64,000 nt of DNA from Propionibacteriales bacterium (GCA_038237745.1 JBBRYJ010000003.1:67426-131425), one strand, 5' to 3'; counted from the first letter of the stretch, positions 4,931-64,000 are shown. Made by a program: numbers and translations. The notes: generated from the sequence alone by a model not told the origin.

Positions 4931-4944
4931 CCCTGACAGCACGG

Positions 4945-5436
4945 TCAGAGCATCTTGCCGAGGTGCACCGCGTCCGGCTGGTCGGCATAGTGGCCGAAGC
5001 GCGGGATGTCCAGGTAGCCCGCTGCGCGGTACAGAGCCAACGCAAGCGGCTGACGCAGCCCAGTCTCCAGCACGAGGGCGTCCGCCCCCAGTGACTGCGC
5101 AGCCATCTCCAGGCGGGTAAGCAGCCGACGCGCCACCCCTTGGCGACGGGCCCGCAGGACGACGTACATCCGCTTGATCTCGGCAGGGCACTTCGCTGGT
5201 ATGTCGAGCGGCGAGCCGTGTCGGCGGAAGCCGCCCATCGCGAGAGGCTCGCCGCTGCGGTAGACGACGAAGAAGGCGCCGCTGGGCGGGGAGAACTCGC
5301 GGTGGTCGAGGGGGGTGTCGTCCGGTCCTCCGTAGATCCGCTCGTAGTAGGCCTGGACCTCGGCGGTCAACGAGGTGACGTCGGGGTGGTCGAAGCCGAT
5401 CTGTACGAACGCCAGAGGGTCCTCGGCGCCGTCCAC
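4945..5436 (-). CDS. GNAT family N-acetyltransferase
   Basis: GTG start at 5436. Contains the acetyl-CoA motif RARRQGVARRLL. 163 aa. Confidence 0.8.
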   Translation of the reverse strand: MDGAEDPLAFVQIGFDHPDVTSLTAEVQAYYERIYGGPDDTPLDHREFSPPSGAFFVVYRSGEPLAMGGFRRHGSPLDIPAKCPAEIKRMYVVLRARRQGVARRLLTRLEMAAQSLGADALVLETGLRQPLALALYRAAGYLDIPRFGHYADQPDAVHLGKML

Positions 5437-5486
5437 CGGGCCAGGCTAGACGACCTCTTCGACCGGGGGGACCGGCGCTTCGGCTC

Positions 5487-6521
5487 CTACAGCCACCCTC
5501 GGTGCCTGAACGCGGCGTACAGCCCACCAGACAGCGCGACGATGAGGAGGCAGGACCAGATGAACCCGCTCTGGGCGGCAAAACCCGGATAGGGCAGGTT
5601 CTGGCCGTAGAAGCCGGTGATGGCGGTGGGCACGGCGATGATTGCGGCCCAGCTGGTCACCTGCTTGGTGATGATGTTGAGCCGGTTGCTCTGGATGGAC
5701 AGGTTGGTCTCGAAGATGGTGCCGACGAGGTCACGAAGAGACTCCGTCCACTCCGTCGCGCGCAGCACATGGTCGTACACGTCCTGGAAGTACGGGGTCA
5801 TGTCCTCGTGCACGACATCGAGGTCGCGCCGCATGAGGGTGTTGACCACCTCGCGCATCGGCAGGACGACCCGCCGCAGCTTGACCAGGCTCTTCCGTAG
5901 CGAGTAGCTGCGCCGCTGTACGTCGAGGTCGCGCCGCATGTCGCCGGCTCGCTCCCGCTCGCCGCCGCCCGAGCTGTCGCCGAACAGCACGTCCTCGAGC
6001 CCCTCGATCTCGTCGTCGAGGGTCTGTACGGCGTCGAAATGGCCGTCCACCACGTGGTCGACCAGACCGTAGAGCAGGAAGCCCACGCCGCACTCAGCGA
6101 GGTCGGATGAGTTGTCCCAGCGGGCGATGACGTCGTCGATGTCGAACAGATCGTCCTTTCGGATCGTCACCAGCGCCGACCGCGTGAGGAACACCGTGAT
6201 CTCGCTGAGCCGGAGCTCGCCGGTGCTCGACTCGAGAGTCACCCCGTACATGTTGAGAAGCTGGTGGTCGGCGTACCGGTCGAGCTTGGGCCGCTGATGG
6301 GACTCGATCGCATCTTCGACCGCCAGCTTGTGCAGGCCGAGCTCCTCGCCGACAAGCTCCACATCGGCGGGACTCGGTCCGCACAGGTCGATCCACACCA
6401 CGCTGTCGGGCTGGTCGATGTAGTCGGACACGTCGGCGACGGGGAAGTCGACCATGTCGAGCCTGCCGCCGCGGTAGAGCCGTGTGCGGGAGATCGCGTC
6501 GATCGCCGCCTTGGTCGTCAT
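5487..6521 (-). CDS. corA: CorA-family divalent metal (Mg/Co) transporter with a YGQN pore motif
   Basis: 344 aa with two C-terminal TM helices. The signature loop FYGQNLPYPGF sits at the end of TM1 (codons at 5598..5609). Confidence 0.9.
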   Translation of the reverse strand: MTTKAAIDAISRTRLYRGGRLDMVDFPVADVSDYIDQPDSVVWIDLCGPSPADVELVGEELGLHKLAVEDAIESHQRPKLDRYADHQLLNMYGVTLESSTGELRLSEITVFLTRSALVTIRKDDLFDIDDVIARWDNSSDLAECGVGFLLYGLVDHVVDGHFDAVQTLDDEIEGLEDVLFGDSSGGGERERAGDMRRDLDVQRRSYSLRKSLVKLRRVVLPMREVVNTLMRRDLDVVHEDMTPYFQDVYDHVLRATEWTESLRDLVGTIFETNLSIQSNRLNIITKQVTSWAAIIAVPTAITGFYGQNLPYPGFAAQSGFIWSCLLIVALSGGLYAAFRHRGWL

Positions 6522-6610
6522 GACCCGGTCGTGGATGTCATGCCGTCACCTGGCGAGGTCTGCTGCCCTCGACATCGAGCGCAAGGCCGCCCGCCCGCGA
6601 GAACGGCAAA

Positions 6611-6641
6611 GGAGGCGACGGCTGGACGTACCGGCGCCTCC
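6611..6641 (-). terminator. Candidate intrinsic terminator hairpin after the GlsB-like gene
   Basis: The arms ggaggcgacgg / ccggcgcctcc form 11 bp with one mismatch. On the minus strand a short T-rich run (tttgcc) follows. The hairpin lies 16 nt downstream of the stop at 6657. Confidence 0.45.
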
Positions 6642-6656
6642 ATTGCCACGGCAGCG

Positions 6657-6929
6657 TCAGACGCTGCTTCTGCTACGACCGCTGTAGAGCGCTGCGGCCC
6701 CCATCACGCCGATCACGGCGAGGATGACCTGGACGATCAGCTCGACCCAGTCGACTCCGCTGGTGTCCCGCATCGGGCCGACGATCGCGCTACCGATGAG
6801 CGCGGCGACGATGCCGACGACGATGGTGAGCCAGATCGGGATGTCCTGCTTGCCCGGGGCAATGGCTCGGCCGACCACTCCGAGGATGAGGCCGACGATG
6901 ATGGCCATAATGATTCCGGTGACTGTCAT
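6657..6929 (-). CDS. GlsB/YeaQ/YmgE-family transglycosylase-associated membrane protein
   Basis: 90 aa with three hydrophobic helices. The start IIMAIIVGLILGVVGRAIAPGKQ is typical of this family. Confidence 0.8.
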   Translation of the reverse strand: MTVTGIIMAIIVGLILGVVGRAIAPGKQDIPIWLTIVVGIVAALIGSAIVGPMRDTSGVDWVELIVQVILAVIGVMGAAALYSGRSRSSV

Positions 6930-7053
6930 GGTTTCTCCTGTTGGGGAAGGGTGAGTCCAGAGAGACCGGGATGGCTCTTTGTCTCATTCGTACTATATAT
7001 CGGGCTCCACCCTAGTGGGAGCCGCGGGAATTTCGCCGACGACTCACCGGACT

Positions 7054-8313
7054 TCACCATGAGGGTCGCAGTGGATAACCGGCGTCACCAGCCGGGCCCA
7101 CCTTGACGCAGAGTACCTGGTGAAGCTGCACCTCATTCGTCTCGAAACCGAGCCGGGAGCCTGCCATATAGAGGCCCCAGATCCGCGCCCTGGGTCCACC
7201 CACGTCGTCGACGCACTCATCCCAGTTCCGCTCGAGGTTGGCACACCACTGGGCGAGGGTGAGTGCGTAGTGCTCGCGCAAATTCTCCTCGTGACGCACC
7301 TCGAAGCCGGCGTCCTGTGCCGCGGTGATGACGCGCCCCGAACCGGTCAGTTCGCCGTCCGGGAAGACGTAGCGGTCGATGAACTGGCCCGTCGACACTC
7401 GGGAGTCGTTGTGCGCACGAGTAATCGAGTGGTTGAGCAGTCGTCCGCTGTCACGAAGCAGCGAATGCAGCAGCGCGAAGTACGACGAATAGTTCTGCAC
7501 TCCGACGTGCTCCAGCAGGCCGATGGAGCTGATGGCGTCGTACTCGTTCCTCGGGGCATCACGGTAGTCACGGTGCAGCACCTGCGCAGAGGAGGCCAGA
7601 CCCTGCTCCTCGATAGCGGCGCTGGCCCAGGCCGCCTGTTGAGCCGAGAGGGTCACACCCACCGCGGTCACCCCGTAGTGCTTGACGGCGTGGCGGATCA
7701 TGCCACCCCATCCGCAGCCCACGTCGAGCAGCCGCATCCCCGGGGCGAGCCCGAGCTTGCGTGCGACCAGGTCGAACTTCTCCTCCTGTGCCTCTTCGAG
7801 GCTCGAGTCCGGCTTGGGGAAGACCGCGCACGTGTAGGCCATAGAAGGCCCGAGGATCTTCTCGTAGAAGGCGTTCGAGACGTCGTAGTGGTGGGTGATG
7901 GAGCCCGCGTCGCGGCGCTTGGAATGTCTGAGCCCCTCGGCGACGCGTCGCCAACGCGGCAGAGTCTCCTCCGGTGGCGGCTCGGGAGGCAGCATCCGCC
8001 GTAACCCGAGCTCGCGTACCAGGCCGGCAGCCTCGGCCATCCCGGGCCGATGGAAGCGCCACCGACCTAGCAGCTTCATCGCCTCATACGGGTCGCCGGG
8101 GTGCACGCCCTCGAGCTCCAGGTCGCCGCTGACATAGGCACGCACTGCTCCGAGGTCTCCTGGGGCGGTCACCATGAACCGCAGCCCGCGCTCGGTCTTG
8201 AGCCGCAGAGTGACTGGCGAGTCCATAGGCCCGAGGGCGCTGCCGTCGTACGCCTCGAATCGGATGGGCGGGGACTCCGAGATCAGCCGACCTACCATGC
8301 TCGCGATCGTCAT
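7054..8313 (-). CDS. cfa: Cyclopropane-fatty-acyl-phospholipid synthase-family SAM methyltransferase (BfaB/UfaA1-like)
   Basis: 419 aa with SAM motif I LLDVGCGWGG. ATGA overlap with the upstream FAD oxidoreductase. Confidence 0.9.
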   Translation of the reverse strand: MTIASMVGRLISESPPIRFEAYDGSALGPMDSPVTLRLKTERGLRFMVTAPGDLGAVRAYVSGDLELEGVHPGDPYEAMKLLGRWRFHRPGMAEAAGLVRELGLRRMLPPEPPPEETLPRWRRVAEGLRHSKRRDAGSITHHYDVSNAFYEKILGPSMAYTCAVFPKPDSSLEEAQEEKFDLVARKLGLAPGMRLLDVGCGWGGMIRHAVKHYGVTAVGVTLSAQQAAWASAAIEEQGLASSAQVLHRDYRDAPRNEYDAISSIGLLEHVGVQNYSSYFALLHSLLRDSGRLLNHSITRAHNDSRVSTGQFIDRYVFPDGELTGSGRVITAAQDAGFEVRHEENLREHYALTLAQWCANLERNWDECVDDVGGPRARIWGLYMAGSRLGFETNEVQLHQVLCVKVGPAGDAGYPLRPSW

Positions 8314-46484: not shown

Positions 46485-49400
46485 CTACCCTGCGGATGGG
46501 GCTTCCGGTACCGGCGGAGGCAGGAGGGCCGCCTTCTTGTCCAGCTCCTGCAGAGCCAGCCTCAACGCCTCGTCGAGCTGCCTGTCCCTGCGCTGAACCC
46601 TGTCCTTCGGTGACATCGGGATCTCGATGTCGGGGTCTACCCCGTAGTTCTCGACGTCCCAGCCGAACTGCTCGAACCAGAATGCGTATCGAGGTTGGGT
46701 GACCAAGGTTCCGTCGACCAGCCGGTAGCGCATGTCGATTCCCACGACACCGCCCCAGGTGCGGGTGCCCACCACCGGACCCAGCTTGAGCGAACGGATC
46801 GCCGCTGTGACGATGTCGCCGTCGGAGCCCGCGTACATGTCCGTCACGGTCACCATCGGGCCGCGCCGAGCGTCAGCGGGATAGGACTCCGGCTGGTGTC
46901 CGCGGCTGACGTCCCAGCCGATGATCGTGCGAGCGAGCTTCTCGACCACGAGCTGAGAGGTGTGACCGCCGCGGTTGGCGCGCACGTCCACGATGAGAGC
47001 GTCCCGCCCGACCTCGGTGCGCAGGTCGCGGTGCAGCTGTGCCCAGCCGCCCGACACCATGTCGGGAACGTGGAGGTATCCGACGCGTCCATCGCTGCGG
47101 TCGTGGACATGGGCCCGGCGCTCGGTGACCCAGTCCTGGTAGCGCAGCGGCATCTCGTCGGCCAGGGGCACGACGACGACCCGCCTGCTGGGACCGCCCG
47201 CCCCGGGGGCGAGGGTCAGCTCGACCGGCTTGTCCGCCGAACCGACGAGAAGTGACGACGGTCCCCTCGTGCGGCTCGTGGCGCGGCCGTCGACCGCCAG
47301 GATCGCGTCACCAGCCTTTGCGCCGACGCCTGGAGCCGTGAGTGGTGAGCGGGCGCGTCGTTCGGACGCCTCGCCCGGCACGATCCGGGCGAGCTTCCAC
47401 GTCTGGCCGTCGAACTCCAAATCGACGCCCAGCAGACCCTGTCGCCGACTAGGCTCGACGTCTGCGTCGGGAGGCATGCAGTACGCGTGCGACGAGCCGA
47501 GCTCGCCGTGCAGCTCCCAGATCAGGTCGACCAGGTCGTCGTGTGAGCCCAGCCTGTCGAGCAGGGGTGCGTAGCGCTGCCTTTCAGCGTTCCAGTCGTG
47601 ACCTCCCATGTCTGCCCGCCAGTAGTGGTCGCGCATGAGCCGCCACGTCTCGTCGTACATCTGGGCCCACTCGGCCTGCGGCAGCACCTCTACCCGGAGC
47701 CGGTCGAGGTCGACGGCATTGTCACCAAGTCCGCCTCCGGGCGGGTCGGCCTTGCGGGTGGCCGGGACGACCAGCAGCGTCCCCCTGTCGCGCACGACGA
47801 GAGTGTCGCCGTCTCCGGTGGCGGTTACCGAGTCCGCTGCCTCGAGCAGCGTCTGGACCTTGCCGGATGCGAAGTCGATGTGCTCGAGGCTGGCACGAAG
47901 AGACTCGTCGTCTGGGCGGGGGAGGTCGTCTCCGAGCTCGCCCTTCAGGGGCTGCTTCAACCAGACGAGTCCTCCCCTCACCGCTCGAAGATGCGAGTAG
48001 CGCCCGCCGGCGACGGGCGCGGCGGTGACCCGCTGGTCGAGGCCGTCGGGGTCGACGGTCGTGAGCGGAGGTTCCGGAGACTTCTGGCCGGTTTCGCCGC
48101 CGCTCGGGTCCTGGCCACGAGCAGGGCCCGTCGGCGGTTCGGCCATCCGGCGGCCCTCGAGGCGCGGGTCGAAGGGAGAGGGCGTGTCGATCGCCAGCGG
48201 GATGACGTGGGGGCGACATCCGTTCGGGAAGGACAGGTCGAACACCACAGCGTCGTACACCGGGTCGAGGCTGCGGATCGACAAGAAGGCCAGGTGCTTG
48301 CCGTCAAGGGCGAACACCGGGTCGGAGTCGGTGAACCGTAGCGGCGTGACGTCGATCGGGTCGGCTCCGGCCGCCCCGACATTCGCCATCCTGATGTTCC
48401 GCAGCGGCGCTGGACCTGGCGCCGACCAGGCAAGCCACTGCGAGTCCGGCGAGAATGCCAAGCCGCTCATGTCGCCGTTCGTCGTCCGGTCGAGCTCCCT
48501 GAGCTGTGCGGCCTCACCGTCGCTGGCTGGAACGCTCACCTCCAGGAGCCGGCCGTCATGGCTGGCGACCGCGAGGCGCCGCCCGTCCGGGGATGCGGCC
48601 AGCTCCAGCACCCGGCCGACGTGCCCGGAGGCCACGAGCTGTGTGGCAGTGACCTCGACGTCGTCTGTGCGACTGAGCTCGATGGCGTCGTCGCCGTCCG
48701 CGCCGGTCACCCAGGCGACACGGGAGGTATCGCCCAGCACGGCTGGCAACCGGCGGCGTACCCCCGAACCGTGAGCGAGTGTCCGGACCGGACCGTCGCG
48801 GTGGGTCAGCCAGTGGATCGTGCCGCGAGTCTCGACGGCAGACGCCCGGCCGCTCTGGTCCGGGCTGATGGACCCCAGCTTCGAGGCATCCACCGTGATC
48901 CGGGTCGGTTGGCGAGCGGTGCGCGCCCCGCCGAGGCGGACGGCGACCTCCCGCGGCTCCACGCCGTCATCGAGGGAGTCCAGCAGGTAGAGCGAACCGC
49001 CCGCTGCGTAGACCACCTGCCGGCCGTCGGATGTCGCGTGCCGGGCGTAGAAGTCGTGGTCGCTGTGCCGGACGAGCGACTCCGTCGTCGGTGCGCCGTC
49101 GTCGACGACCGCACTGTAGAGCTGCGCCCGGTGTTCATGGTCGGAGAGGAATCCGATGCGTTGGCGGCCGTCCCGCCCTCGGGCCCATAGCGGACTGACC
49201 AGGCTGGAGCGCAGTTCGGTGAACAGACGCTCGTACTCGCCTTCTCCGGTCCGGTCGAGCCACAGCTGTGCCGCCGTGCCGCCGCGGTAGTTCTTCCACC
49301 AGGCGGGCTCCACGGTGGTCGCCGTCGACAGCAGTACGCCGCCGCCGGGCTCCAGGTCGAGCTCCCCGACCCAGCCGTACGGCAGCTGGCGACTCGGCCC

Positions 49401-49772
49401 GCCGTCCAGAGGAACGGCGTGCGCGAACATCCGGGCCCGTTCGGCCTCGCCTGTCGTGCTCACGACCAGGATCTCCTCGTCGTTGAACCACCCCCTGACG
49501 AAGGTCCGGTCCTGGCCCCAGAACGTGAGACGCGTCGAGACGCCCCCGTCGATCGGGGCGACGTACACCTCCCGCCCGCCGTCGCGCTGGGCGCTCCAGG
49601 CGACCCACGATCCGGAGGGGGAGATGCGGGGAGAGGTTGCCGGTACCTGGTCCGCGCTGACGCGGTACGGGCGGCCACCCTCTCGTCCGGCAAGCCAGAT
49701 GTCGTTCTCGGCGACGAAGACGATGGCGTCGTCACGCACGTGGGGGAACCGGATGTAGGCGTCTGTCGTCAC
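46485..49772 (-). CDS. Tricorn protease homologue (S41 peptidase with beta-propeller and PDZ domains)
   Basis: 1095 aa. N-terminal IRFPHVRDDAIVFVAENDIWL, WD40-like/TolB-like repeats, and a C-terminal S41 catalytic region. Confidence 0.8.
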   Translation of the reverse strand: MTTDAYIRFPHVRDDAIVFVAENDIWLAGREGGRPYRVSADQVPATSPRISPSGSWVAWSAQRDGGREVYVAPIDGGVSTRLTFWGQDRTFVRGWFNDEEILVVSTTGEAERARMFAHAVPLDGGPSRQLPYGWVGELDLEPGGGVLLSTATTVEPAWWKNYRGGTAAQLWLDRTGEGEYERLFTELRSSLVSPLWARGRDGRQRIGFLSDHEHRAQLYSAVVDDGAPTTESLVRHSDHDFYARHATSDGRQVVYAAGGSLYLLDSLDDGVEPREVAVRLGGARTARQPTRITVDASKLGSISPDQSGRASAVETRGTIHWLTHRDGPVRTLAHGSGVRRRLPAVLGDTSRVAWVTGADGDDAIELSRTDDVEVTATQLVASGHVGRVLELAASPDGRRLAVASHDGRLLEVSVPASDGEAAQLRELDRTTNGDMSGLAFSPDSQWLAWSAPGPAPLRNIRMANVGAAGADPIDVTPLRFTDSDPVFALDGKHLAFLSIRSLDPVYDAVVFDLSFPNGCRPHVIPLAIDTPSPFDPRLEGRRMAEPPTGPARGQDPSGGETGQKSPEPPLTTVDPDGLDQRVTAAPVAGGRYSHLRAVRGGLVWLKQPLKGELGDDLPRPDDESLRASLEHIDFASGKVQTLLEAADSVTATGDGDTLVVRDRGTLLVVPATRKADPPGGGLGDNAVDLDRLRVEVLPQAEWAQMYDETWRLMRDHYWRADMGGHDWNAERQRYAPLLDRLGSHDDLVDLIWELHGELGSSHAYCMPPDADVEPSRRQGLLGVDLEFDGQTWKLARIVPGEASERRARSPLTAPGVGAKAGDAILAVDGRATSRTRGPSSLLVGSADKPVELTLAPGAGGPSRRVVVVPLADEMPLRYQDWVTERRAHVHDRSDGRVGYLHVPDMVSGGWAQLHRDLRTEVGRDALIVDVRANRGGHTSQLVVEKLARTIIGWDVSRGHQPESYPADARRGPMVTVTDMYAGSDGDIVTAAIRSLKLGPVVGTRTWGGVVGIDMRYRLVDGTLVTQPRYAFWFEQFGWDVENYGVDPDIEIPMSPKDRVQRRDRQLDEALRLALQELDKKAALLPPPVPEAPSAG

Positions 49773-58188: not shown

Positions 58189-58299
58189 CGCTTGCGCTTG
58201 AGGGGAAGTCGGTGCGAGCCCGACGCTGTCCCGCAGCCGTGATCGGCCCAGACGTCTTTCGTCTGACCAGCCGTCAGCCGGAATGCCTCTGCGCGAGCG
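58189..58299 (+). promoter_or_regulatory. Cobalamin (B12) riboswitch aptamer
   Basis: P1: cgcttgcgc (58189..58197) pairs with gcgcgagcg (58291..58299). Core: AGGGGAAGUCGGUGCGAGCCCGACGCUGUCCCGCAGCCGUGA (58201..58242), which fits GGGAA-N3-GGUG...CC...CCCGC-N2-C-GU-A. Internal hairpins are GUCGG/CCGAC and CAGACG/CGUCUG. A B12-box-like AGCCGGAAUGCCU lies at 58276..58288. The 3' end is 107 nt upstream of the first ATG. Confidence 0.75.
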
Positions 58300-58405
58300 A
58301 GCGGCTCCACACCTGTCGAGGTCTACAGGATTCGGAGTCTGGACTCCGCCTCCGTGCCGTCCGACACGTTCCGCTCCTGGGACCGCTCGTGAAAGGCACA
58401 ATCAG

Positions 58406-59500
58406 ATGAACACTCACCCTGCCGTACGCGCCGCCGTAGCTGCGCTGGCACTCACCCTCATGTCGGCGGGAAGCCCCGCAGTGGCTCAGGCCGGCGCCTC
58501 CTCGTCGCCCCACTACCGGGCCAAGGGCACTGCGGCCGCCCGCTGGCAGGCGACCCAGCTCCACAAGCGTCGGATCCACACCAGCGGGTTCGACGACTGG
58601 GGGCTGACGATCGACTCGGCCTTCGCGATCGCGGCGGACGGCACCCAGCCCAGGCTGCTTCGCCATCTGACCAGGGCGATCGAGAACAACTACTACGACC
58701 ACTACGCCACTTTCAAGGGTGACGTCTTCGCCGGAGCGATGGCGAAGTCGCTCGTGGCGGCGAAGATCTTGGGGCGGCGCGCACGGCACTTCGGCGGCCA
58801 CAACGTCCGCCACCGGGTCCTGTCGCTCGTTGCGCCCGCTCGGGCCGGGTTCGAGGCCGGAAGACTGCGCGACACGGGCGCGACCGACTTCACCAACACG
58901 ATCAGCCAGGCGTACGGCGTGCTCGGGCTGGCCCGCACTGGCGGCGTTCGGCACAGCGCCGTCACCTACCTCCTGAAGCAGCAGTGCGCGCAGGGCTACT
59001 TCCGCACCTTCGAGACCGTCGGCGAGACGTGTGACCGCAGTTCCAGCCGGGCCGACGTCGACGCGACCGCGATCGCTATCCAGGCCCTGGTCGCAGCTCG
59101 GAGGTCGGGCGCACGGGTGACCCGTGCTGCCATTCCTGATGCGGCCCGCTGGCTCTTGTCCAAGCAGCGGGCGAGTGGTGGTTTCGGCGGAGGACCGGCC
59201 ACTCGAGCGGTCAACACCAACAGCACCGGCCTCGCCGTTCAGGCGCTGGTTGCCACCCACCACTCCGGCGTACGGTCCCGGGCCGCGCGTTACGTCGCGT
59301 CTCAGCAGATCACTCGCGCCCGAGCCGACCGAGGCCGCGCACGTCGCGACATCGGAGCCATCGCCTATAACGCCGCCGGGCTCGCGGCAGCGTTGAGGGA
59401 TGGGGTCACCTCGACCACGCGAGACCAGTTCCGGCGGTCGACCGCTCAGGCGATCTACGCCCTCGTCCCGAGACCGCTGAGCACCCTGTCGGTGAGGTGA
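58406..59500 (+). CDS. Exported prenyltransferase/squalene-cyclase-repeat (alpha/alpha toroid)-like protein
   Basis: ORF trimmed to ATG 58406, with GAAAGG 9 nt upstream. Signal peptide ending ...SPAVAQA. Repeat-like motifs LLKQQCAQGYF and LLSKQRASGGFGG. Confidence 0.65.
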   Translation: MNTHPAVRAAVAALALTLMSAGSPAVAQAGASSSPHYRAKGTAAARWQATQLHKRRIHTSGFDDWGLTIDSAFAIAADGTQPRLLRHLTRAIENNYYDHYATFKGDVFAGAMAKSLVAAKILGRRARHFGGHNVRHRVLSLVAPARAGFEAGRLRDTGATDFTNTISQAYGVLGLARTGGVRHSAVTYLLKQQCAQGYFRTFETVGETCDRSSSRADVDATAIAIQALVAARRSGARVTRAAIPDAARWLLSKQRASGGFGGGPATRAVNTNSTGLAVQALVATHHSGVRSRAARYVASQQITRARADRGRARRDIGAIAYNAAGLAAALRDGVTSTTRDQFRRSTAQAIYALVPRPLSTLSVR

Positions 59501-59504
59501 CGCC

Positions 59505-60623
59505 GTGATGCGTGGATGCTTCGCGACCGGCGTCGCCGTCGGGGTCCTGCTGGGCCTCGGGGTGGCCGGACCGGCCTTCGCGCGCACCTCGGCTGAAGGC
59601 GCATCGTCCCCGGAAGTGGCGACCTCTGCCCTTGCCGCGGCCGGCTCACCCGGTTACTGCGCGAGCGATGTCGGTGTGACCGTCGTGGTGGACCTGACCG
59701 CTCTCGGGGGTGATGTCGTCGTCCGCTGCGCGCAGGGCTCGGTCGAGCCGGGGTTCACCGGGCTCGACGCCCTACAGGGAGCCGGCTTCAGCGTGACCGG
59801 CACCCAGCGGTTCGGTCTTGCGTTCGTGTGCAGGATCCAGGGGAGCCCGGCCGCCGACACGGCCGTTGCCATCCCGGGCAACCCGGACTACCACGAGCAA
59901 TGCCGGGACACACCGCCCTGGACGGCATACTGGGGATACTGGTACGCCCCTAACGGTGGTCGGTGGACCTACAGCAGCGGCGCCGGGGCAGAGGCCCGCG
60001 ACGTGATCGCAGGAGGCTTCGAGGGCTGGGCGTTCTCCCTGGGGGAAGGTTCTCCGCCGCAGCCCGCCCTCGAACCGCGCCGTCCCGAAGCAACGCCGTC
60101 GTCGGTGCCCCCTCCGGCCACCACCCCGACCCCGCCGCCGCGACGGCACCACGCCGTTCCTATCTCGAGCACCCCCATATCGGTGCCCTCGGGGGGAGGG
60201 CCTGCCGGACACGCGCATGCCAGCGCCTCTGCTCTGAGCCGGTCCACCAGACCGACGACCTCGCCGCCGCCCGGTACCTCGGCTCCGGTGGGCACCGCCT
60301 CTCCCCCTACGCATGCGGGACAGTCCGACTCCGGCGTGCATGGGCCCGCCGCTCCGAGCACTGCCACGCGGTCTCCAGCCCCTGACCGCAAGACGCCTGC
60401 GAAGACTGCCCGGGGCACCGTGCCCCCCACGGCCCAGCCGGCGCCGACCTCGGCCGGCCCTACCGGTGTCGCGGGCAGCGGGGTCGAGGTCACAGGCGAC
60501 CTGCCGGACACCGGCGCGCAGTCGGTCGGCTCGTCAAGAGCCACCGTCCTCGGAGCCGGGCTCCTTGTGCTCATAGGTCTTGGCGCTGGACTGACGGCGT
60601 GGCGTCGCTCGCACCGAACGTGA
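59505..60623 (+). CDS. Sortase-anchored surface protein with an N-terminal DUF4430/transcobalamin-C-terminal-like domain and a Pro-rich stalk
   Basis: Signal peptide ending ...GPAFA. Globular domain ending WGYWYAPNGGRWTYSSGAGAEARDVIAGGFEGWAF. About 170 aa of P/T/S/A-rich linker, then LPDTG, a hydrophobic helix and WRRSHRT. Confidence 0.7.
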   Translation: MMRGCFATGVAVGVLLGLGVAGPAFARTSAEGASSPEVATSALAAAGSPGYCASDVGVTVVVDLTALGGDVVVRCAQGSVEPGFTGLDALQGAGFSVTGTQRFGLAFVCRIQGSPAADTAVAIPGNPDYHEQCRDTPPWTAYWGYWYAPNGGRWTYSSGAGAEARDVIAGGFEGWAFSLGEGSPPQPALEPRRPEATPSSVPPPATTPTPPPRRHHAVPISSTPISVPSGGGPAGHAHASASALSRSTRPTTSPPPGTSAPVGTASPPTHAGQSDSGVHGPAAPSTATRSPAPDRKTPAKTARGTVPPTAQPAPTSAGPTGVAGSGVEVTGDLPDTGAQSVGSSRATVLGAGLLVLIGLGAGLTAWRRSHRT

Positions 60624-61780
60624 CCGGTCTGGGCGCCTACTGGCTCCCCAGGTCGCTGCACCCGGTCGCCTGGTGGCTGTGGGCGCTCGGGCTCGCGGTC
60701 GCCGCCAGCCGCACCACGAACCCACTTCTGCTGGGAGTGGTGCTGGGCGTGGTGTCCTGGGTCGTCGTCGCTCGTCGTTCCGACACGCCCTGGGCGAAGG
60801 CGTTCAAGCTGTACGTCGTCGCGGGCGTGGTGGTCGTCGGTCTGCGCGTGTTCTTCAGGCTGCTCTTCGGTGGGGGCGGAGACGGTCACGTGCTCCTACC
60901 GCTGCCCGAGATCGTCCTGCCCAGGCTTGTGGCAGGCATCCACCTCCTCGGTGACGTGACGGCGGAGTCGCTCCTCGGAGGGTTCTACGACGGGCTACGC
61001 CTCGCGACCATGCTGATATGTCTCGGGGCGGCGAACGCTCTCGCCAACCCGCGCCGTTTGCTGCGCTCCATGCCCGGGGCTCTGCACGAGGTCAGCGTCG
61101 CCGTCGTCGTCGCCTTGTCGGTGTTCCCTCAGCTCGCCGAGAGCGTGGTAAGGACGACGTCGGCCCGCAAGCTGCGACCGGGAAGCGACGACCGCGGGTT
61201 CGCCGCCCTCCGCGCTGTCGTCATACCGGTGCTCGAGGATGCGCTCGACAGGTCGCTGATGTTGGCGGCGTCCATGGACTCGCGAGGTTACGGGCGCTCC
61301 GGCGACCGGCCGCGACGGACCAGCGTGGTCGTCGGGGCCCTGCTCATCGGCGGACTCGCCGGGATCTGCGTCGGCGCCTATGCCCTGCTCGACGCGACGA
61401 CGCCTCGGTATCTGGCCATGCCGGTGCTCGGTGTCGGCGTCTGCGTTGGTGTCGGAGGGCTCACGTTGTCGGGTGGCTCGGTCCTGCGGTCGTGCTACCG
61501 ACGGGACCGTTGGCGCACGGCCGAGATCGTGACCGCCGGATCGGGACTGACCACCGGCCTTCTCCTCTCTATGTCCGCTCGTGTGGACCCCTCGAATCTC
61601 AATCCGTCGCTGGCGCCGTTGTCGTGGCCGCAGCTGTCGGCGCTGTCGCTTCTCGGTGCCCTGGTCGGTCTCTTGCCGGCCGTCGCGACGCCGTCGCCGG
61701 TACCCACCCAGGCGCCCTCGTCGCCGTTACCGTCCGACACGCCCTCGTCGTCGGCTCCGCACGAGGCGTGCTCGTCGTGA
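60620..61780 (+). CDS. ecfT: ECF transporter transmembrane (T) component, CbiQ/EcfT family
   Basis: GTGA overlap with the upstream stop (alternative GTG 60599). Multi-TM protein with the conserved coupling region ARKLRPG...DALDRSLMLAASMDSRGY. Confidence 0.8.
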   Translation: MTGLGAYWLPRSLHPVAWWLWALGLAVAASRTTNPLLLGVVLGVVSWVVVARRSDTPWAKAFKLYVVAGVVVVGLRVFFRLLFGGGGDGHVLLPLPEIVLPRLVAGIHLLGDVTAESLLGGFYDGLRLATMLICLGAANALANPRRLLRSMPGALHEVSVAVVVALSVFPQLAESVVRTTSARKLRPGSDDRGFAALRAVVIPVLEDALDRSLMLAASMDSRGYGRSGDRPRRTSVVVGALLIGGLAGICVGAYALLDATTPRYLAMPVLGVGVCVGVGGLTLSGGSVLRSCYRRDRWRTAEIVTAGSGLTTGLLLSMSARVDPSNLNPSLAPLSWPQLSALSLLGALVGLLPAVATPSPVPTQAPSSPLPSDTPSSSAPHEACSS

Positions 61781-63405
61781 TCTCCTTCGACGGCTACAGC
61801 TTCTGGTACCCGGGCGCGCTCGAACCGACCTTGCGCTCGGTCACTTTCGACATCGGCGAGGGTGAGCTCGCACTCGTGGTCGGGCTCACCGGCTCGGGGA
61901 AGTCCACCCTCTTGCGTTCGGTCAACGGGCTGGTGCCGCACTTCACCGGTGGCCATGTCGAGGGTCGGGTCACGGTCGGCGGCCGTGACCCACGTCGGTA
62001 CCCGCCGCGGGAGCTTGCAGACACGGTGGGCGTCGTCGGGCAGGACCCGCTGGCCGGGTTCGTCACAGACACGGTGGAGGAGGAGCTTGCCTACGGCATG
62101 GAGCAGCTGGCCTTCTCACCTCAGGTGATGCGGCGTCGGGTGGAGGAGGTGCTCGACCTCATGGGCATCGCGCGCCTGCGCCACCGCACCCTGCGCACGC
62201 TGTCCGGAGGGGAGCAGCAACGGGTGGCCCTTGGCTCAGTGCTCGCCGCCTCCCCGCGGGTGCTCGTGCTCGACGAGCCGACGTCCGCACTGGACCCGGC
62301 CGCCGCCGAGGACGCGCTCGCGGCGATGCTGAGACTCGTCCACGACCTCGGCGTCACTGTCGTTGCCGCCGAACACCGACTCGAGCGCGTCGTGGAGTAC
62401 GCCGACAGCCTGGTCCTGGTACACGATCAGCGTGCGAGCCTCGGCGATCCGCGGGCGATGCTCCGGGACGGCCCGCTCGCCCCGCCGGTGGTACAGCTCG
62501 GCCGGCTTGCCGGCTGGGACCCCCTGCCGCTCTCGGTGCGTGACGCACGTCGCGTCGCCGGTCCGCTGCGCGGTCGCCTCGACGGGCTCGCGCCGCCCTC
62601 CCCTGCGCTGTCGGCGGGGAGCGCCTCGGACGGTCTCGAGGTCTCGGCGCTCGTCGTCCGGTACGGCGGAGTGGTGGCCTTGCGCGGTGTGGACGTGGAG
62701 GCCGCACCGGGCGAGGTCGTGGCTCTGATGGGCCGCAACGGGTCCGGCAAGTCGTCGCTGCTCTGGGCGGTGCAGGGCTCCGGGCGTCGCAGTTCCGGCA
62801 GGGTGTCGGTGTGCGGGCGGGATCCGGTGGGTCTGGCTCGGCGGGACTCGGCACGGCTGGTGGCGCTGGTGCCGCAGCAAGCCGCAGACCTGCTGTACCA
62901 CGACTCGGTCGACTCCGAGTGCTGCGCGGCCGACCGGGCCACCGGGATGTCTCCGGGTACTGCTCGTGGGCTGTTCGACCGTCTTGCCGATGGTACGGCG
63001 GTCTCCGGCGCCTCGCACCCCCGGGACCTGTCCGACGGGCAGCGGCTCGCCCTGGCTCTCGCGGTCCAGCTGGCCGCCCGGCCCCGTGTGCTTCTTCTCG
63101 ACGAGCCGACCCGCGGCCTCGACTACTCGGCGAAGGACCGGCTCTCGACGGTTCTGGGCCGCCTCGCCGCCGAAGGGTGTGCAGTCGTGGTTGCCACCCA
63201 TGACGTGGAGTTCGTGGCGCAGTGCGCGCACCGGGTCGTCGTCCTCGCCGAGGGGGAGGTCGTCACCTCCGCGCCCACGGGGCAGGCGCTTGCGGGGTCA
63301 CCGGTGTTCGCTCCTCAGGTCGCCAAGGTTATGGCGCCGCAGCCGTGGCTGACCGTGGACCAGGTGGCCGGGGCCCTGTCGGGACAGGCGGTGGGGCATG
63401 GGTGA
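61777..63405 (+). CDS. ECF transporter ATPase, fused A-A' (two ABC domains)
   Basis: ORF trimmed to GTG 61777 (GTGA overlap). Two sets of motifs: GLTGSGKST/LSGGEQQR/VLVLDEPTS and GRNGSGKSS/LSDGQRLA/LLLDEPTRG. Confidence 0.9.
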   Translation: MISFDGYSFWYPGALEPTLRSVTFDIGEGELALVVGLTGSGKSTLLRSVNGLVPHFTGGHVEGRVTVGGRDPRRYPPRELADTVGVVGQDPLAGFVTDTVEEELAYGMEQLAFSPQVMRRRVEEVLDLMGIARLRHRTLRTLSGGEQQRVALGSVLAASPRVLVLDEPTSALDPAAAEDALAAMLRLVHDLGVTVVAAEHRLERVVEYADSLVLVHDQRASLGDPRAMLRDGPLAPPVVQLGRLAGWDPLPLSVRDARRVAGPLRGRLDGLAPPSPALSAGSASDGLEVSALVVRYGGVVALRGVDVEAAPGEVVALMGRNGSGKSSLLWAVQGSGRRSSGRVSVCGRDPVGLARRDSARLVALVPQQAADLLYHDSVDSECCAADRATGMSPGTARGLFDRLADGTAVSGASHPRDLSDGQRLALALAVQLAARPRVLLLDEPTRGLDYSAKDRLSTVLGRLAAEGCAVVVATHDVEFVAQCAHRVVVLAEGEVVTSAPTGQALAGSPVFAPQVAKVMAPQPWLTVDQVAGALSGQAVGHG

Positions 63406-64000
63406 GTCTCACGCGATGAGCCTCGGGAAGCGGACGGCAGTCGTTCTCGCGATGGCGTCGGGAGCCGGAATCGTCATGTTCTGCTGGCCGCTGTTCGTGA
63501 AGACGGGCGGGGACTCCTCCGCCCATACGTCCGACGCACCTTTCGTCTTCGTATTGGTCCTGCCTTTCCTCGTCGCGATCGTGCTCACCGCCTTCGCCGA
63601 AGGAGGCATCGACTCCAAGGCGCTCGCTATGCTCGGCGTCCTGTCCGCGATCAACGCTGCGCTTCGGCCACTCGGGGCGGGCGTGGCAGGTATCGAGACC
63701 GTCTTCTTCCTGCTTGTCCTGGCCGGGAGGGTGTTCGGGCCGGCGTTCGGCTTCGTCCTCGGCTGCACCTCGCTGTTCGCGTCCGCGCTGCTCACCGCCG
63801 GGGTAGGGCCGTGGCTGCCGTTCCAGATGCTGGCGTCGGCATGGATAGGTCTCGGCGCGGGACTGCTCCCTCGGAGGTGGCGGGGCGGCACCGAGATCGC
63901 CATGCTCGTCGCCTACGGCATCGTGGCTGCGTACGCCTTCGGGATCCTGATGAACCTCTGGTCGTGGCCGTTCACGGTGGGGTACGGGACCGCCCTGTCC
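63398..64000 (+). CDS. ECF transporter substrate-capture (S) component, 3' end beyond the window (partial)
   Basis: My own translation; not in the ORF track because it is edge-truncated. ATG 63398 overlaps the ATPase stop (alternative ATG 63416). The protein is hydrophobic throughout (VVLAMASGAGIVMFCWPLF..., GIETVFFLLVLAGRVFGPAFGFVLG...). Confidence 0.65.
   Translation, partial: MGESHAMSLGKRTAVVLAMASGAGIVMFCWPLFVKTGGDSSAHTSDAPFVFVLVLPFLVAIVLTAFAEGGIDSKALAMLGVLSAINAALRPLGAGVAGIETVFFLLVLAGRVFGPAFGFVLGCTSLFASALLTAGVGPWLPFQMLASAWIGLGAGLLPRRWRGGTEIAMLVAYGIVAAYAFGILMNLWSWPFTVGYGTALS

What the first reader, a model, noticed from the sequence alone, without database searches (positions are those of the whole stretch)
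58406..60623. Two exported proteins behind a B12 riboswitch that together resemble the two domains of transcobalamin/intrinsic factor: candidate wall-anchored B12-capture device
Seen in sequence: both ORFs start with clear signal peptides and are the first genes after the riboswitch.
- Protein 1 (364 aa) carries Q-x-x-x-G-(G/Y)-F repeat motifs (LLKQQCAQGYF, LLSKQRASGGFGG), typical of prenyltransferase/squalene-cyclase alpha/alpha-toroid repeats.
- Protein 2 has a roughly 150-aa globular domain ending in WGYWYAPNGGRWTYSSGAGAEARDVIAGGFEGWAF. This resembles the G-W-x-Y-x-V-N-G ... G-D-x-I-x-W hallmark of DUF4430.
- Protein 2 continues with about 170 aa of Pro/Thr/Ser-rich stalk and an LPDTG + TM + RR sortase signal.

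Established knowledge: eukaryotic B12 carriers are built from an alpha6/alpha6 barrel plus a beta domain. DUF4430 (PF14478) is the transcobalamin-like C-terminal domain. As I recall it, Pfam places Cobalamin_bind in the same six-hairpin clan as the prenyltransferase repeats.

Inference: this is a split, surface-displayed B12-binding pair handing substrate to the downstream ECF importer. I am not aware of a characterised surface B12 scavenger of this design in Actinomycetota; the known bacterial examples, such as BtuG in Bacteroides, are unrelated folds.
Basis: partly seen in the sequence, partly recalled or inferred. Interest (0 to 1): 0.8.

Follow-up and report, generated by a model that had tools for sequence, protein, structure and literature searches.

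The report
Riboswitch-controlled two-protein vitamin B12 catcher
Behind a vitamin B12-sensing RNA switch, this actinobacterium encodes a secreted barrel-shaped protein and a membrane-tethered partner. They probably catch B12-like molecules outside the cell for the importer encoded next to them. The design was predicted for other Gram-positive bacteria in 2007, but here the second domain is strongly diverged and unstudied.

Summary
The genes are real and form one operon. The order is cobalamin riboswitch (58203-58287), exported alpha/alpha-toroid protein P1 (58406-59500), exported stalked protein P2 (59505-60623), then EcfT, a fused EcfA-A' ATPase and an S component.

The B12-capture reading is well supported by context:
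- P2 relatives occur in 343 actinobacterial species genomes.
- P2-T-AA'-S are collinear in 62 of 67 loci.
- A P1-like gene lies upstream on the same strand in 62 of 70 loci.
- A same-strand cobalamin riboswitch precedes the operon in at least 32 of 56 loci.
- P1-like and P2-like domains are fused in one chain many times, in both orders.

- P2 is not a detectable DUF4430. There is no PF14478 hit in any of 60 members and no Foldseek match to transcobalamin. Only a faint profile-profile signal exists (P about 0.01).
- P1 is a generic toroid, closer to small squalene-hopene-cyclase-like proteins. Transcobalamin ranks 11th.
- The LPDTG motif is not conserved (2 of 120 homologs), so a C-terminal membrane anchor is more likely than sortase anchoring.

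The design is also not new. Burroughs et al. 2007 predicted it, and L. sakei lsa1836-1840 is a partly tested split example.

Verdict: a new, widespread, uncharacterised actinobacterial variant of a known kind.

The parts
58203..58287 (+). Cobalamin riboswitch aptamer (core; model positions 46-168 matched)
   Evidence: RF00174 at 36.9 bits against gathering 31.5, E 9.2e-6. Orthologous loci carry RF00174/RF01482 at the same place.
58406..59500 (+). P1: exported alpha/alpha-toroid protein, 364 aa, signal peptide about aa 1-28, no anchor. Candidate alpha-like half of the corrinoid clamp.
   Evidence: ORF with RBS GAAAGG 9 nt upstream. Pfam/NCBIfam sub-threshold toroid hits and SCO2321_fam at 1.6e-18. 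Family profile against PDB: SHC 1.5e-20. AF2 pLDDT 92.4. Foldseek: 8pak 1e-7, transcobalamin 7qbg_C 1.6e-4.
59505..60623 (+). P2: exported, stalked, C-terminally anchored protein, 372 aa
   Evidence: ORF. About 170 homologs found by word-indexed search. 2583 clusters at 50% identity. 343 species genomes.
59640..60059 (+). P2 globular domain (aa ~46-185): 8 strands plus 1 helix, four invariant Cys. Candidate beta-like half of the clamp.
   Evidence: AF2 core pLDDT >92. Invariant C52, C75, C109 and C133. No PF14478 hit. No PDB neighbour by Foldseek. Faint hhalign signal to DUF4430.
60060..60509 (+). P2 Pro/Thr/Ser/Ala/Gly-rich stalk (aa 186-335)
   Evidence: Composition is 73% P+T+S+A+G. Homologs have tails of similar kind but variable length and sequence.
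60501..60620 (+). LPDTG (60501-60515), hydrophobic helix (60546-60602) and basic tail RRSHRT (60603-60620)
   Evidence: Coordinates. The motif is not conserved, whereas the helix plus basic tail is conserved in 111/120 homologs.
60599..61780 (+). EcfT/CbiQ transmembrane component; overlaps the end of P2 by 25 nt
   Evidence: PF02361 CbiQ at 37.2 bits against cut-off 25. Collinear with P2 in 62/67 loci.
61777..63405 (+). Fused EcfA-A' double ABC ATPase
   Evidence: Two ABC_tran domains. TIGR04521/TIGR04520 ECF ATPase hits at 1e-76 and 6e-74.
63416..64000 (+). ECF S-component-like membrane protein (cut off by the window end)
   Evidence: ECF-ribofla_trS at 1.8e-5. Full-length orthologue in L011: ECF_trnsprt at 29.9 bits against cut-off 30.7. 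No sequence match to solved S components.

Best explanation
This is a B12-repressed operon for corrinoid scavenging. When intracellular cobalamin is low, the riboswitch allows expression of five proteins.
- P1 is secreted as a free alpha/alpha-toroid protein.
- P2 is exported and held at the cell surface. It has a C-terminal transmembrane helix and a stalk of about 150 residues, rich in Pro/Thr/Ser, that is long enough to cross the wall.
- The small disulfide-stabilised P2 domain and the P1 toroid together bind a corrinoid (cobalamin, cobinamide or another cobamide) between them. [quoted passage not shown]
- The pair then passes the ligand to the S component of the dedicated ECF transporter (EcfT, EcfA-A', S) encoded directly downstream.

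Shown here: the riboswitch, export signals, folds, operon structure, conservation, domain fusions and riboswitch co-occurrence.

Inferred: corrinoid as the ligand, the sandwich geometry, hand-over to the S component, and the mode of anchoring.
For: Regulation:
- RF00174 lies directly upstream.
- At the gathering score, a same-strand cobalamin riboswitch precedes the operon in 32 of 56 related loci.
- In 4 of 6 'negative' loci re-scanned at lower stringency, a cobalamin match just below the gathering score sits at the expected place.
- About 0.6 Mb of DNA held roughly 50 cobalamin riboswitch hits and only one other RNA, a tRNA.

Functional linkage of P1 and P2:
- They are adjacent here and in 22 loci.
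- A P1-like gene is upstream on the same strand in 62/70 loci. In 6 more it is fused or downstream.
- Single-chain fusions exist: P0229, the L036 ORF at 4806-6785, and 9 of 10 long family members. Both domain orders occur, including the transcobalamin order in P0404.

Link to transport:
- P2-EcfT-EcfAA'-S are collinear in 62/67 loci, with overlapping stop and start codons here.

Folds:
- P1 is an alpha/alpha toroid, with transcobalamin among its significant structural matches (TM 0.53, rmsd 5.3 A over 349 columns).
- The P2 model has the element order hairpin-helix-hairpin...hairpin, with 8 strands and 1 helix. This is the order described for the ubiquitin-like transcobalamin beta domain (PMC11107200).
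- The best-probability Foldseek hits for P2 are weak ones to beta-grasp folds.
- hhalign places P2 on genuine DUF4430 in the expected register. The score is 21.6 and P 0.014. It is exceeded by 0/60 column shuffles and 2/60 block shuffles.

Other support:
- Extracellular location fits the signal peptides and the invariant Cys pairs.
- Precedent: the same architecture was predicted for B12 scavenging in Gram-positives (PMC1796856).
- Isolated transcobalamin domains bind B12 and associate only with the ligand (PMC11107200).
- Extra toroid paralogues sit alone behind their own B12 riboswitches in L037, L062 and L066.
Against: - No binding data exist for any member.
- P2 has no detectable PF14478 match.
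- HMM cross-searches barely separate real sequences from decoys.
- The hhalign probability is only 0.4-3%.
- Foldseek finds no transcobalamin, intrinsic factor or haptocorrin beta domain for P2.
- P1 is closer to small terpene-cyclase-like toroids than to transcobalamin. It fails the PF01122 cut-off.
- The S component is generic and shows no sequence match to any solved structure, including the solved B12 S component CbrT.
- Many host genera (Streptomyces, Amycolatopsis, Nocardioides) are known B12 producers (my own knowledge), so the need for scavenging is not obvious.
- In L. sakei, the analogous operon was linked experimentally to heme rather than B12.
- P1 has no anchor, so it is unclear how it is retained at the surface.
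Confidence: 0.62

Rival explanations
1. The module captures another tetrapyrrole or metal chelate (heme, a corrin precursor, a metallophore) rather than finished B12. The B12 riboswitch would then merely tie its expression to cobalamin status.
For: The L. sakei lsa1836-1840 operon has the same layout: S, AA', T, a transcobalamin-beta-like protein and a transcobalamin-alpha-like protein. Its deletion affected heme uptake (bioRxiv 10.1101/864751). Burroughs et al. allowed 'B12 or its precursors' or a distinct metabolite. The host genera include B12 producers (own knowledge).
Against: Cobalamin riboswitches precede the operon across many genera. The operon clusters with classic B12-regulon genes: MetE, NrdI and further riboswitches. 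No heme- or iron-related gene or regulator was seen at the locus.
Confidence: 0.13
2. The ECF module imports cobalt ions for B12 synthesis, like B12-riboswitch-controlled CbiMNQO systems. P1 and P2 would be surface accessory proteins that concentrate the metal or serve another envelope role.
For: CbiQ and cbiO-type profile hits. B12 riboswitches commonly control cobalt transporters in B12 producers (established knowledge; PMC2667541, for Cbi/NikMNQO as ECF systems).
Against: No CbiM- or CbiN-like component is present. The S protein matches generic vitamin-type S components: ECF_trnsprt, the riboflavin type and the folT family. A 330-residue toroid plus a 140-residue domain, fused in many lineages, suits a large organic ligand. 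No conserved His or free Cys metal site exists in P1.
Confidence: 0.08
3. P1 is an extracytoplasmic enzyme of the terpene-cyclase or prenyltransferase type acting on an envelope lipid. P2 is an unrelated surface protein. Linkage to the ECF genes and the riboswitch would reflect co-regulation only.
For: The best structural and profile matches of P1 are squalene-hopene-cyclase-like proteins. The P1 segment DVDATA aligns with the SHC catalytic DVDDTA.
Against: The third Asp of DxDD is Ala in 41/56 members and never Asp. No conserved His or Zn ligands exist, and the only conserved Cys are a likely disulfide pair. The protein is exported. Repeated fusion with the P2 domain and strict synteny with a transporter argue for binding rather than catalysis.
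Confidence: 0.05

Closest known systems
Bacterial transcobalamin-like SLBB (DUF4430, PF14478) plus alpha/alpha-toroid surface proteins of Gram-positive bacteria, in CbiQ/CbiO operons (Burroughs, Balaji, Iyer & Aravind 2007, PMC1796856)
   Same: Signal peptides and a C-terminal anchor. A small beta-rich domain is combined with an alpha/alpha toroid, fused in either order or encoded side by side. Paralogous second copies occur in the operon, with adjacent CbiQ/CbiO-type transporter genes. The predicted role is extracellular scavenging of B12 or precursors (here).
   Different: The small domain here does not match PF14478 by HMM, and Foldseek finds no solved transcobalamin, intrinsic factor or haptocorrin beta domain for it. 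It carries four invariant Cys and an extra hairpin insert of about 25 residues. It belongs to a separate family, labelled PF28005 in the database's precomputed Pfam column, and shows only sub-cutoff hits to NCBIfam SCO2322_fam. The hosts are Actinomycetota, many of them B12 producers, whereas the 2007 set mostly lacked B12 synthesis.
Lactobacillus sakei lsa1836-1840: ECF-like transporter with Lsa1839 (transcobalamin beta-like) and Lsa1840 (transcobalamin alpha-like) (bioRxiv 10.1101/864751)
   Same: The two halves are split into separate exported proteins. They are encoded in one operon with EcfS, a fused EcfA-A' and EcfT.
   Different: In L. sakei both proteins give strong HHpred matches to transcobalamin domains, and the operon was tied experimentally to heme uptake. 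Here the beta-like half is undetectable as DUF4430, the operon is riboswitch-controlled, and P2 has a long stalk and a membrane anchor.
Eukaryotic transcobalamin / intrinsic factor / haptocorrin (PF01122 + PF14478)
   Same: An alpha6/alpha6 toroid plus a ubiquitin-like beta domain. [quoted passage not shown] P1 aligns structurally with transcobalamin. The order of secondary-structure elements in P2 matches the beta domain.
   Different: Here there are two polypeptides instead of one. P1 fails the PF01122 cut-off. P2 gives no structural or HMM match. The proteins are surface-tethered and feed an ECF importer rather than a receptor.
ECF-CbrT vitamin B12 transporter of Lactobacillus delbrueckii (PMC5997447)
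   Same: An ECF-type importer proposed or shown to carry cobalamin.
   Different: The ECF-CbrT complex solved in that paper consists of CbrT plus the ECF module only. The S component here shows no sequence match to any solved chain, CbrT included.
NCBIfam SCO2321 family membrane protein / SCO2322 family protein (Streptomyces coelicolor neighbours)
   Same: These are the nearest named families. P1 hits SCO2321_fam at 1.6e-18. P2 homologs hit SCO2322_fam at 1e-5 to 1e-9 over the YWSYW...GGFEGWSF segment.
   Different: All scores are far below the curated cut-offs: 67 against 300 bits, and 24-39 against 85 bits. The window's own P2 gives no hit at all. No paper in the library describes SCO2321-2325 function.

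Membership tests
DUF4430 / transcobalamin-like C-terminal SLBB domain (PF14478) | Match to the PF14478 profile | tested here: not met
   There is no hit at E<=1 for P2. There is none at E<=10 for any of 60 family members. A DUF4430 HMM built here scores real P2 domains at mean 0.0 bits, against -1.2 and -1.9 for reversed and shuffled decoys.
DUF4430 / transcobalamin-like C-terminal SLBB domain (PF14478) | Profile-profile similarity to genuine DUF4430 sequences | tested here: inconclusive
   The first hhalign run gave probability 0.44% and E 0.14. With 254 P2 domains it gave probability 3.2%, P 0.014 and score 21.6, in the expected register. Controls scored 13.3 (reversed), 12.1 +/- 2.4 (column shuffles, 0/60 reach the real score) and 16.3 +/- 2.3 (block shuffles, 2/60 reach it).
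DUF4430 / transcobalamin-like C-terminal SLBB domain (PF14478) | Structural similarity to the beta domain of transcobalamin, intrinsic factor or haptocorrin | tested here: not met
   Foldseek of the confident P2 model against PDB gave no hit with E<=0.001 and no transcobalamin, intrinsic factor or haptocorrin chain among 24 weak hits. The best-probability hits are ubiquitin-like, PB1 and DIX beta-grasp folds at prob <=0.09. The element order of hairpin-helix-hairpin...hairpin, with 8 strands and 1 helix, does agree with the published description.
DUF4430 / transcobalamin-like C-terminal SLBB domain (PF14478) | Context: secreted, combined with an alpha/alpha toroid, next to CbiQ/CbiO genes | tested here: met
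   Signal peptide. Fusions with toroids in both orders. Synteny with the ECF genes in 62/67 loci.
DUF4430 / transcobalamin-like C-terminal SLBB domain (PF14478) | Binds a corrinoid | not testable with these tools
   This needs purified protein and UV-vis or ITC measurements.
Alpha/alpha toroid (six-hairpin) superfamily: prenyltransferase, squalene cyclase, transcobalamin alpha domain | Toroid of paired helices with Q-x-x-x-G-x-F/W repeat motifs | tested here: met
   PF13243 at 1.5e-5 and PF00432 at 3.2e-5, both just below cut-off. Family profile against SHC at 1.5e-20. AF2 pLDDT 92.4, all-helical. 47 Foldseek hits at E<=1e-3, all toroids.
Eukaryotic cobalamin-binding protein alpha domain (PF01122) | Match to PF01122 at its gathering score, or transcobalamin as the nearest structure | tested here: not met
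   PF01122 gives E 0.0082 at 15.6 bits, against a cut-off of 25. Transcobalamin is absent from the profile-against-PDB sequence hits. It is Foldseek rank 11 at E 1.6e-4, behind cyclase-like and prenyltransferase toroids.
Class II terpene cyclase / protein prenyltransferase (as enzymes) | Catalytic DxDD motif, or Zn-binding Asp/Cys/His | tested here: not met
   The aligned motif is D-V-D-A-T-A. Position 220 is Ala, Thr, Ser or Val and never Asp in 56 sequences. There is no conserved His, and only Cys194 and Cys209 are conserved.
Sortase-anchored LPXTG surface proteins | LPXTG motif followed by a hydrophobic segment and a basic tail, recognised by LPXTG models and conserved in orthologues | tested here: not met
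   LPDTG, a hydrophobic stretch and RRSHRT are present in this protein. However, PF00746 and TIGR01167 give no hit. Only 2/120 homologs have L[PA]x[TSA]G in the tail, and the aligned position reads LPRSA, LPDSP, LPNDP and so on. In contrast, 111/120 keep the helix plus basic tail.
Group I (dedicated) ECF transporter | EcfT, two ATPase domains and an S component encoded together | tested here: met
   CbiQ at 37.2 bits, above cut-off 25. Two ABC_tran domains with ECF_ATPase profiles at 1e-74 to 1e-76. The S component is borderline: ECF_trnsprt at 29.9 bits against 30.7 in the L011 orthologue.
Cobalamin riboswitch (RF00174, clan CL00101) | Score at or above the gathering threshold, upstream of and on the same strand as the regulated genes | tested here: met
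   36.9 bits against 31.5. The same arrangement occurs in 32/56 related loci at the gathering score. A match just below it occurs in 4/6 loci re-scanned.
NCBIfam SCO2321_fam / SCO2322_fam | Score at or above the curated cut-off | tested here: not met
   P1 scores 66.8 bits against 300. P2 gives no hit, and its homologs score 24-39 bits against 85. The families are related but are not the same.

The most novel reading that the evidence does not exclude
The P2 domain is a previously unrecognised corrinoid-binding module with no solved structural neighbour. It is either an extremely diverged cousin of the transcobalamin beta domain or a convergent replacement. Together with a secreted toroid, it gives hundreds of actinobacterial species, including B12 producers, an extracytoplasmic substrate-capture stage in front of an ECF transporter. 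ECF transporters are a class defined by working without soluble binding proteins.
Probability: 0.5. Interest if true: 0.65.

Novelty: new variant of a known kind. Interest (0 to 1): 0.5.

Why it matters
- ECF transporters are textbook examples of importers that need no extracytoplasmic binding protein. A conserved, riboswitch-controlled pair of surface proteins in front of one would be an exception, and it can be tested directly.
- How Actinomycetota take up B12, other than through the mycobacterial transporter BacA, is poorly known.
- This operon occurs in at least 343 species genomes. It is marked by a ligand-specific RNA switch, which names the likely ligand in advance.
- It could clarify the bacterial origin of the animal B12 carriers.
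- It could explain why B12 producers still scavenge corrinoids.
- It could provide a new small corrinoid-binding domain.

Tried and rejected
- Direct sequence search of P2 and of its family profile against PDB gave only low-complexity noise.
- Foldseek of the P2 model against PDB gave nothing significant.
- A DUF4430 HMM run against P2 domains, and the reverse search, gave almost no separation from reversed and shuffled decoys.
- I had recalled that Bacteroides BtuH carries a DUF4430 domain. The paper does not mention DUF4430, transcobalamin or intrinsic factor, so I dropped this comparison.
- I considered modelling the natural fusion P0229 to see the interface. I used the two structure jobs on the window's own proteins instead. 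Foldseek could not align a beta-then-alpha chain onto transcobalamin (alpha-then-beta), and no coordinates are returned.
- The full-length S component of the L011 orthologue matched no solved structure by sequence, so there is no match to the solved B12 S component CbrT either.
- Literature searches for SCO2321-SCO2325 found nothing relevant. A search for squalene-oxidase-repeat proteins with cobalamin found no paper holding that term.
- The consensus scan found no sigma-70-like promoter and no intrinsic terminator around the leader.
- Neighbouring window genes are unrelated to B12: a CoA-transferase III, a sugar transferase, 2-oxoacid dehydrogenase E1 subunits, a tricorn-like protease, ABC exporters and EamA transporters.
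Full report
**What is at the locus**

On the + strand there is a cobalamin riboswitch aptamer at 58203-58287. It scores 36.9 bits on RF00174, against a gathering score of 31.5 (E 9e-6). It is the only Rfam hit in the 64-kb window.

The first ORF starts 118 nt downstream, behind a GAAAGG ribosome-binding site. This is P1, 58406-59500, 364 aa. P2 follows four bases later at 59505-60623, 372 aa.

The end of P2 overlaps the start of a CbiQ/EcfT gene (60599-61780; PF02361 at 37 bits, above cut-off). That gene overlaps a double ABC ATPase (about 61777-63405), whose best NCBIfam matches are ECF ATPases at 1e-74 to 1e-76. An S-component-like membrane protein begins at 63416 and runs off the window.

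An identical P1 and the same gene order occur on a Logan contig from SRR19962011. The surrounding window genes are unrelated to B12.

**P1**

Pfam gives four hits, all below their cut-offs:
- SQHop_cyclase_C at 1.5e-5.
- Prenyltrans at 3.2e-5.
- The A-macroglobulin TED domain at 0.006.
- Cobalamin_bind at 0.008 (15.6 bits against 25).

A profile of 56 family members hits squalene-hopene cyclase in the PDB at 1.5e-20, but not transcobalamin.

The AlphaFold model is confident (pLDDT 92.4, pTM 0.88) and all-helical. In Foldseek the best matches are small single-domain squalene-hopene-cyclase-like proteins (8pak, 8paj; 1e-7 to 3e-6). A prenylcyclase and prenyltransferase beta subunits come next. 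Transcobalamin (7qbg_C) is rank 11, with E 1.6e-4, TM 0.53 and rmsd 5.3 A over 349 columns.

P1 is therefore an alpha/alpha toroid of the right superfamily, but it is not specifically transcobalamin-like. It is unlikely to be an enzyme, for three reasons:
- Its DVDATA segment aligns with the catalytic DVDDTA of SHC, but the third Asp is never present in 56 relatives.
- There is no conserved His.
- The only conserved cysteines, C194 and C209, look like an extracellular disulfide.

**P2**

No Pfam or NCBIfam family matches it. PF14478 matches none of 60 family members, even at E<=10.

Its homologs carry a precomputed label, PF28005, which is absent from the local Pfam copy. They give weak NCBIfam SCO2322_fam hits of 24-39 bits, against a cut-off of 85.

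The family alignment shows a domain of about 140 residues with four invariant cysteines. Its conserved blocks are GVTVVVD, VVRC, TGLDAL, FVCRI, DTPP, YWSYWYA and GGFEGWSF.

The AlphaFold model of the domain is confident (core pLDDT above 92). Its elements are a hairpin (58-63/71-76), a helix (86-92), a hairpin (97-100/104-111), a hairpin (120-123/126-130), and strands 141-148 and 172-179.

Foldseek against the PDB finds nothing significant and no B12 carrier. The highest-probability weak hits are ubiquitin-like, PB1 and DIX beta-grasp domains.

I obtained genuine DUF4430 sequences, human transcobalamin beta plus bacterial PF14478 proteins, and compared profiles:
- hhalign gave probability 0.44% with the first alignment.
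- With 254 P2 domains it gave probability 3.2% and P 0.014.
- The real score of 20.7, obtained on the compacted alignment that the controls used, exceeded all 60 column shuffles. It exceeded only 58 of 60 block shuffles.
- HMM cross-searches hardly separated real sequences from decoys.

The published description of the transcobalamin beta domain is ubiquitin-like, with a hairpin, a helix, a hairpin and a further hairpin, eight strands in all. That fits the model's element order (PMC11107200).

My reading is that a very distant relationship to the SLBB/transcobalamin beta domain is possible but unproven. Membership in DUF4430 is not met.

**Anchoring**

The stalk is real: 150 residues, 73% P/T/S/A/G.

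The LPDTG motif is present, but only 2 of 120 homologs have any L[PA]x[TSA]G in the tail. The aligned positions read LPRSA, LPDSP, LPNDP, LPRGG and so on. In contrast, 111 of 120 keep a hydrophobic helix followed by a basic tail. No LPXTG model matches P2.

The conserved feature is thus a C-terminal membrane anchor, and the LPDTG is most simply a chance variant. In other lineages the toroid protein, rather than P2, carries a stalk with a true LPXTG signal. An example is P0237, which has LPTTG and hits PF00746 and TIGR01167.

**Context across genomes**

- Pattern scanning of one genome per GTDB species found 343 loci encoding P2 relatives. The best 80 are all from Actinomycetota: Nocardioidaceae, Propionibacteriales, Kribbella, Tessaracoccus, Streptomyces, Lentzea, Amycolatopsis, Actinomadura, Micromonospora and others.
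- An exhaustive HMMER search found 2583 clusters at 50% identity with E<=1e-3.
- P2, EcfT, EcfAA' and S are collinear in 62 of 67 loci that have enough downstream sequence.
- A P1-like gene lies upstream on the same strand in 62 of 70 loci, and is adjacent in 22. In six more it is fused or downstream.
- Rfam at gathering scores finds a same-strand RF00174 or RF01482 hit just upstream of the operon in 32 of 56 loci scanned.
- Four of six 'negative' loci re-scanned at lower stringency have cobalamin matches just below the gathering score, at the expected place.
- The only non-cobalamin RNA hit in about 0.6 Mb was one tRNA.
- Several loci are small B12-regulon islands, with further riboswitches in front of MetE, NrdI, a family-5 solute-binding protein, or extra toroid paralogues.

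**Fusions**

P0229 (596 aa) and an ORF in L036 (659 aa) have the same layout: signal peptide, P2-like domain, P1-like toroid, stalk and membrane anchor.

Of ten long proteins holding a P2 domain, nine also hold toroid segments. Both domain orders occur, including the transcobalamin order (toroid then P2) in P0404. Some carry Ig domains. One second toroid hits Cobalamin_bind at 1.8e-4.

Amycolatopsis (L062) has a riboswitch, then a 911-aa toroid protein, then a soluble P2 paralogue, then an anchored P2, then EcfT.

These 'Rosetta stone' fusions are the strongest evidence that P1 and P2 act as one unit.

**Mechanism**

The best-supported reading has five steps:
1. The switch is off when B12 is abundant.
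2. At low B12, P1 is secreted.
3. P2 is displayed on a wall-spanning stalk anchored in the membrane.
4. The two proteins clamp a corrinoid between them.
5. The ligand is delivered to the S component of the dedicated ECF importer.

The sequential, ligand-dependent association known for separated transcobalamin domains gives a plausible precedent for a split clamp.

Ligand identity, geometry and hand-over are inferred. I put this reading at about 0.6. The rivals, given with their evidence in the Rival explanations section, are:
- Capture of another tetrapyrrole, as suggested by the L. sakei heme data.
- Cobalt ion uptake with accessory proteins.
- An enzymatic role for P1.

**Comparison with what is known, and novelty**

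Burroughs et al. described the architecture in 2007 for Gram-positive bacteria. It comprised transcobalamin-like SLBB domains with signal peptides and Gram-positive anchors. These were fused to, or encoded beside, alpha/alpha toroids in either order. Paralogous second SLBB proteins occurred, in operons with CbiO/CbiQ. The predicted role was to scavenge B12 or its precursors (PMC1796856).

Verplaetse et al. described a split beta-like/alpha-like pair next to an ECF transporter in L. sakei. A deletion there affected heme uptake.

No member has been shown to bind B12, however. I found nothing on the actinobacterial family or on SCO2321-2325.

What is new here:
- A large, riboswitch-marked actinobacterial branch.
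- A small domain that has diverged beyond HMM and Foldseek recognition.
- A conserved membrane-anchored stalk.

I rate this a new variant of a known kind, with interest about 0.5.

Noticed in passing
L062 195-1223 (-), L066 1440-2567 (+), L037 137-1156 (-): Extra toroid-like paralogues (weak Prenyltrans/SQHop hits) each sit directly behind their own cobalamin riboswitch, separate from the main operon. The toroid family itself therefore seems tied to B12 regulation.
   Followed up: partly
L018 2-1726 (-), L043 6407-6835 (+), L025 57-1703 (-): Next to the operon, further cobalamin riboswitches precede MetE (B12-independent methionine synthase), NrdI (class Ib ribonucleotide reductase flavodoxin) and a family-5 solute-binding protein. 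The loci form small B12-regulon islands.
   Followed up: partly
L042 27-175 (-), 303-506 (+), 4746-4860 (+), 9567-9766 (+): There are four cobalamin riboswitches within 10 kb. One lies directly in front of a P2 gene, and no P1-like gene was detected in the locus.
   Followed up: no
L036 4806-6785 (+) and about 6800-7558 (+): A P2-toroid fusion protein (659 aa) is followed by a second stand-alone P2 paralogue before EcfT. Amycolatopsis L062 likewise has a soluble P2 (193 aa, 4345-4926) and an anchored one, after a 911-aa P1-like toroid protein that ends in a hydrophobic helix.
   Followed up: partly
P0356, P0372, P0376 (proteins): Very long members of the P2 family (740-1195 aa) also contain immunoglobulin-like domains. 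This recalls the Ig-fused SLBB proteins listed by Burroughs et al. 2007.
   Followed up: no
P0340 residues 621-826: The second toroid region of a 918-aa P2-toroid fusion hits Pfam Cobalamin_bind at E 1.8e-4 (21 bits, cut-off 25). This is the closest approach to the eukaryotic family seen in this study.
   Followed up: no
window 59850-59925 (P2 aa ~116-140): A short form of the P2 domain lacks about 14 residues of the hairpin insert (RINGKPTAATEPCVNTPP). It is found in P0114, P0229 and the soluble Streptomyces paralogues in L033, L043 and L065, as well as the anchored one in L050. The insert is therefore lineage-specific.
   Followed up: no
P0084, P0100, P0109, P0110, P0112: NCBI and UniRef name some P2 homologs 'ABC transporter substrate-binding protein', although no substrate-binding-protein family matches them here. 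The origin of that name is unknown.
   Followed up: no
window 58330-58345: A perfect 6-bp hairpin (CGGAGT-CTGG-ACTCCG) lies between the aptamer and the P1 start, without a U-tract. It could belong to the expression platform. The consensus scan found no canonical terminator or promoter.
   Followed up: no
window 46485-49772 (-): A 1095-aa tricorn-protease-like protein (PD40/WD40 repeats, Tricorn C1 and PDZ domains, Peptidase_S41) lies 8.6 kb upstream. It is unrelated to the finding.
   Followed up: no
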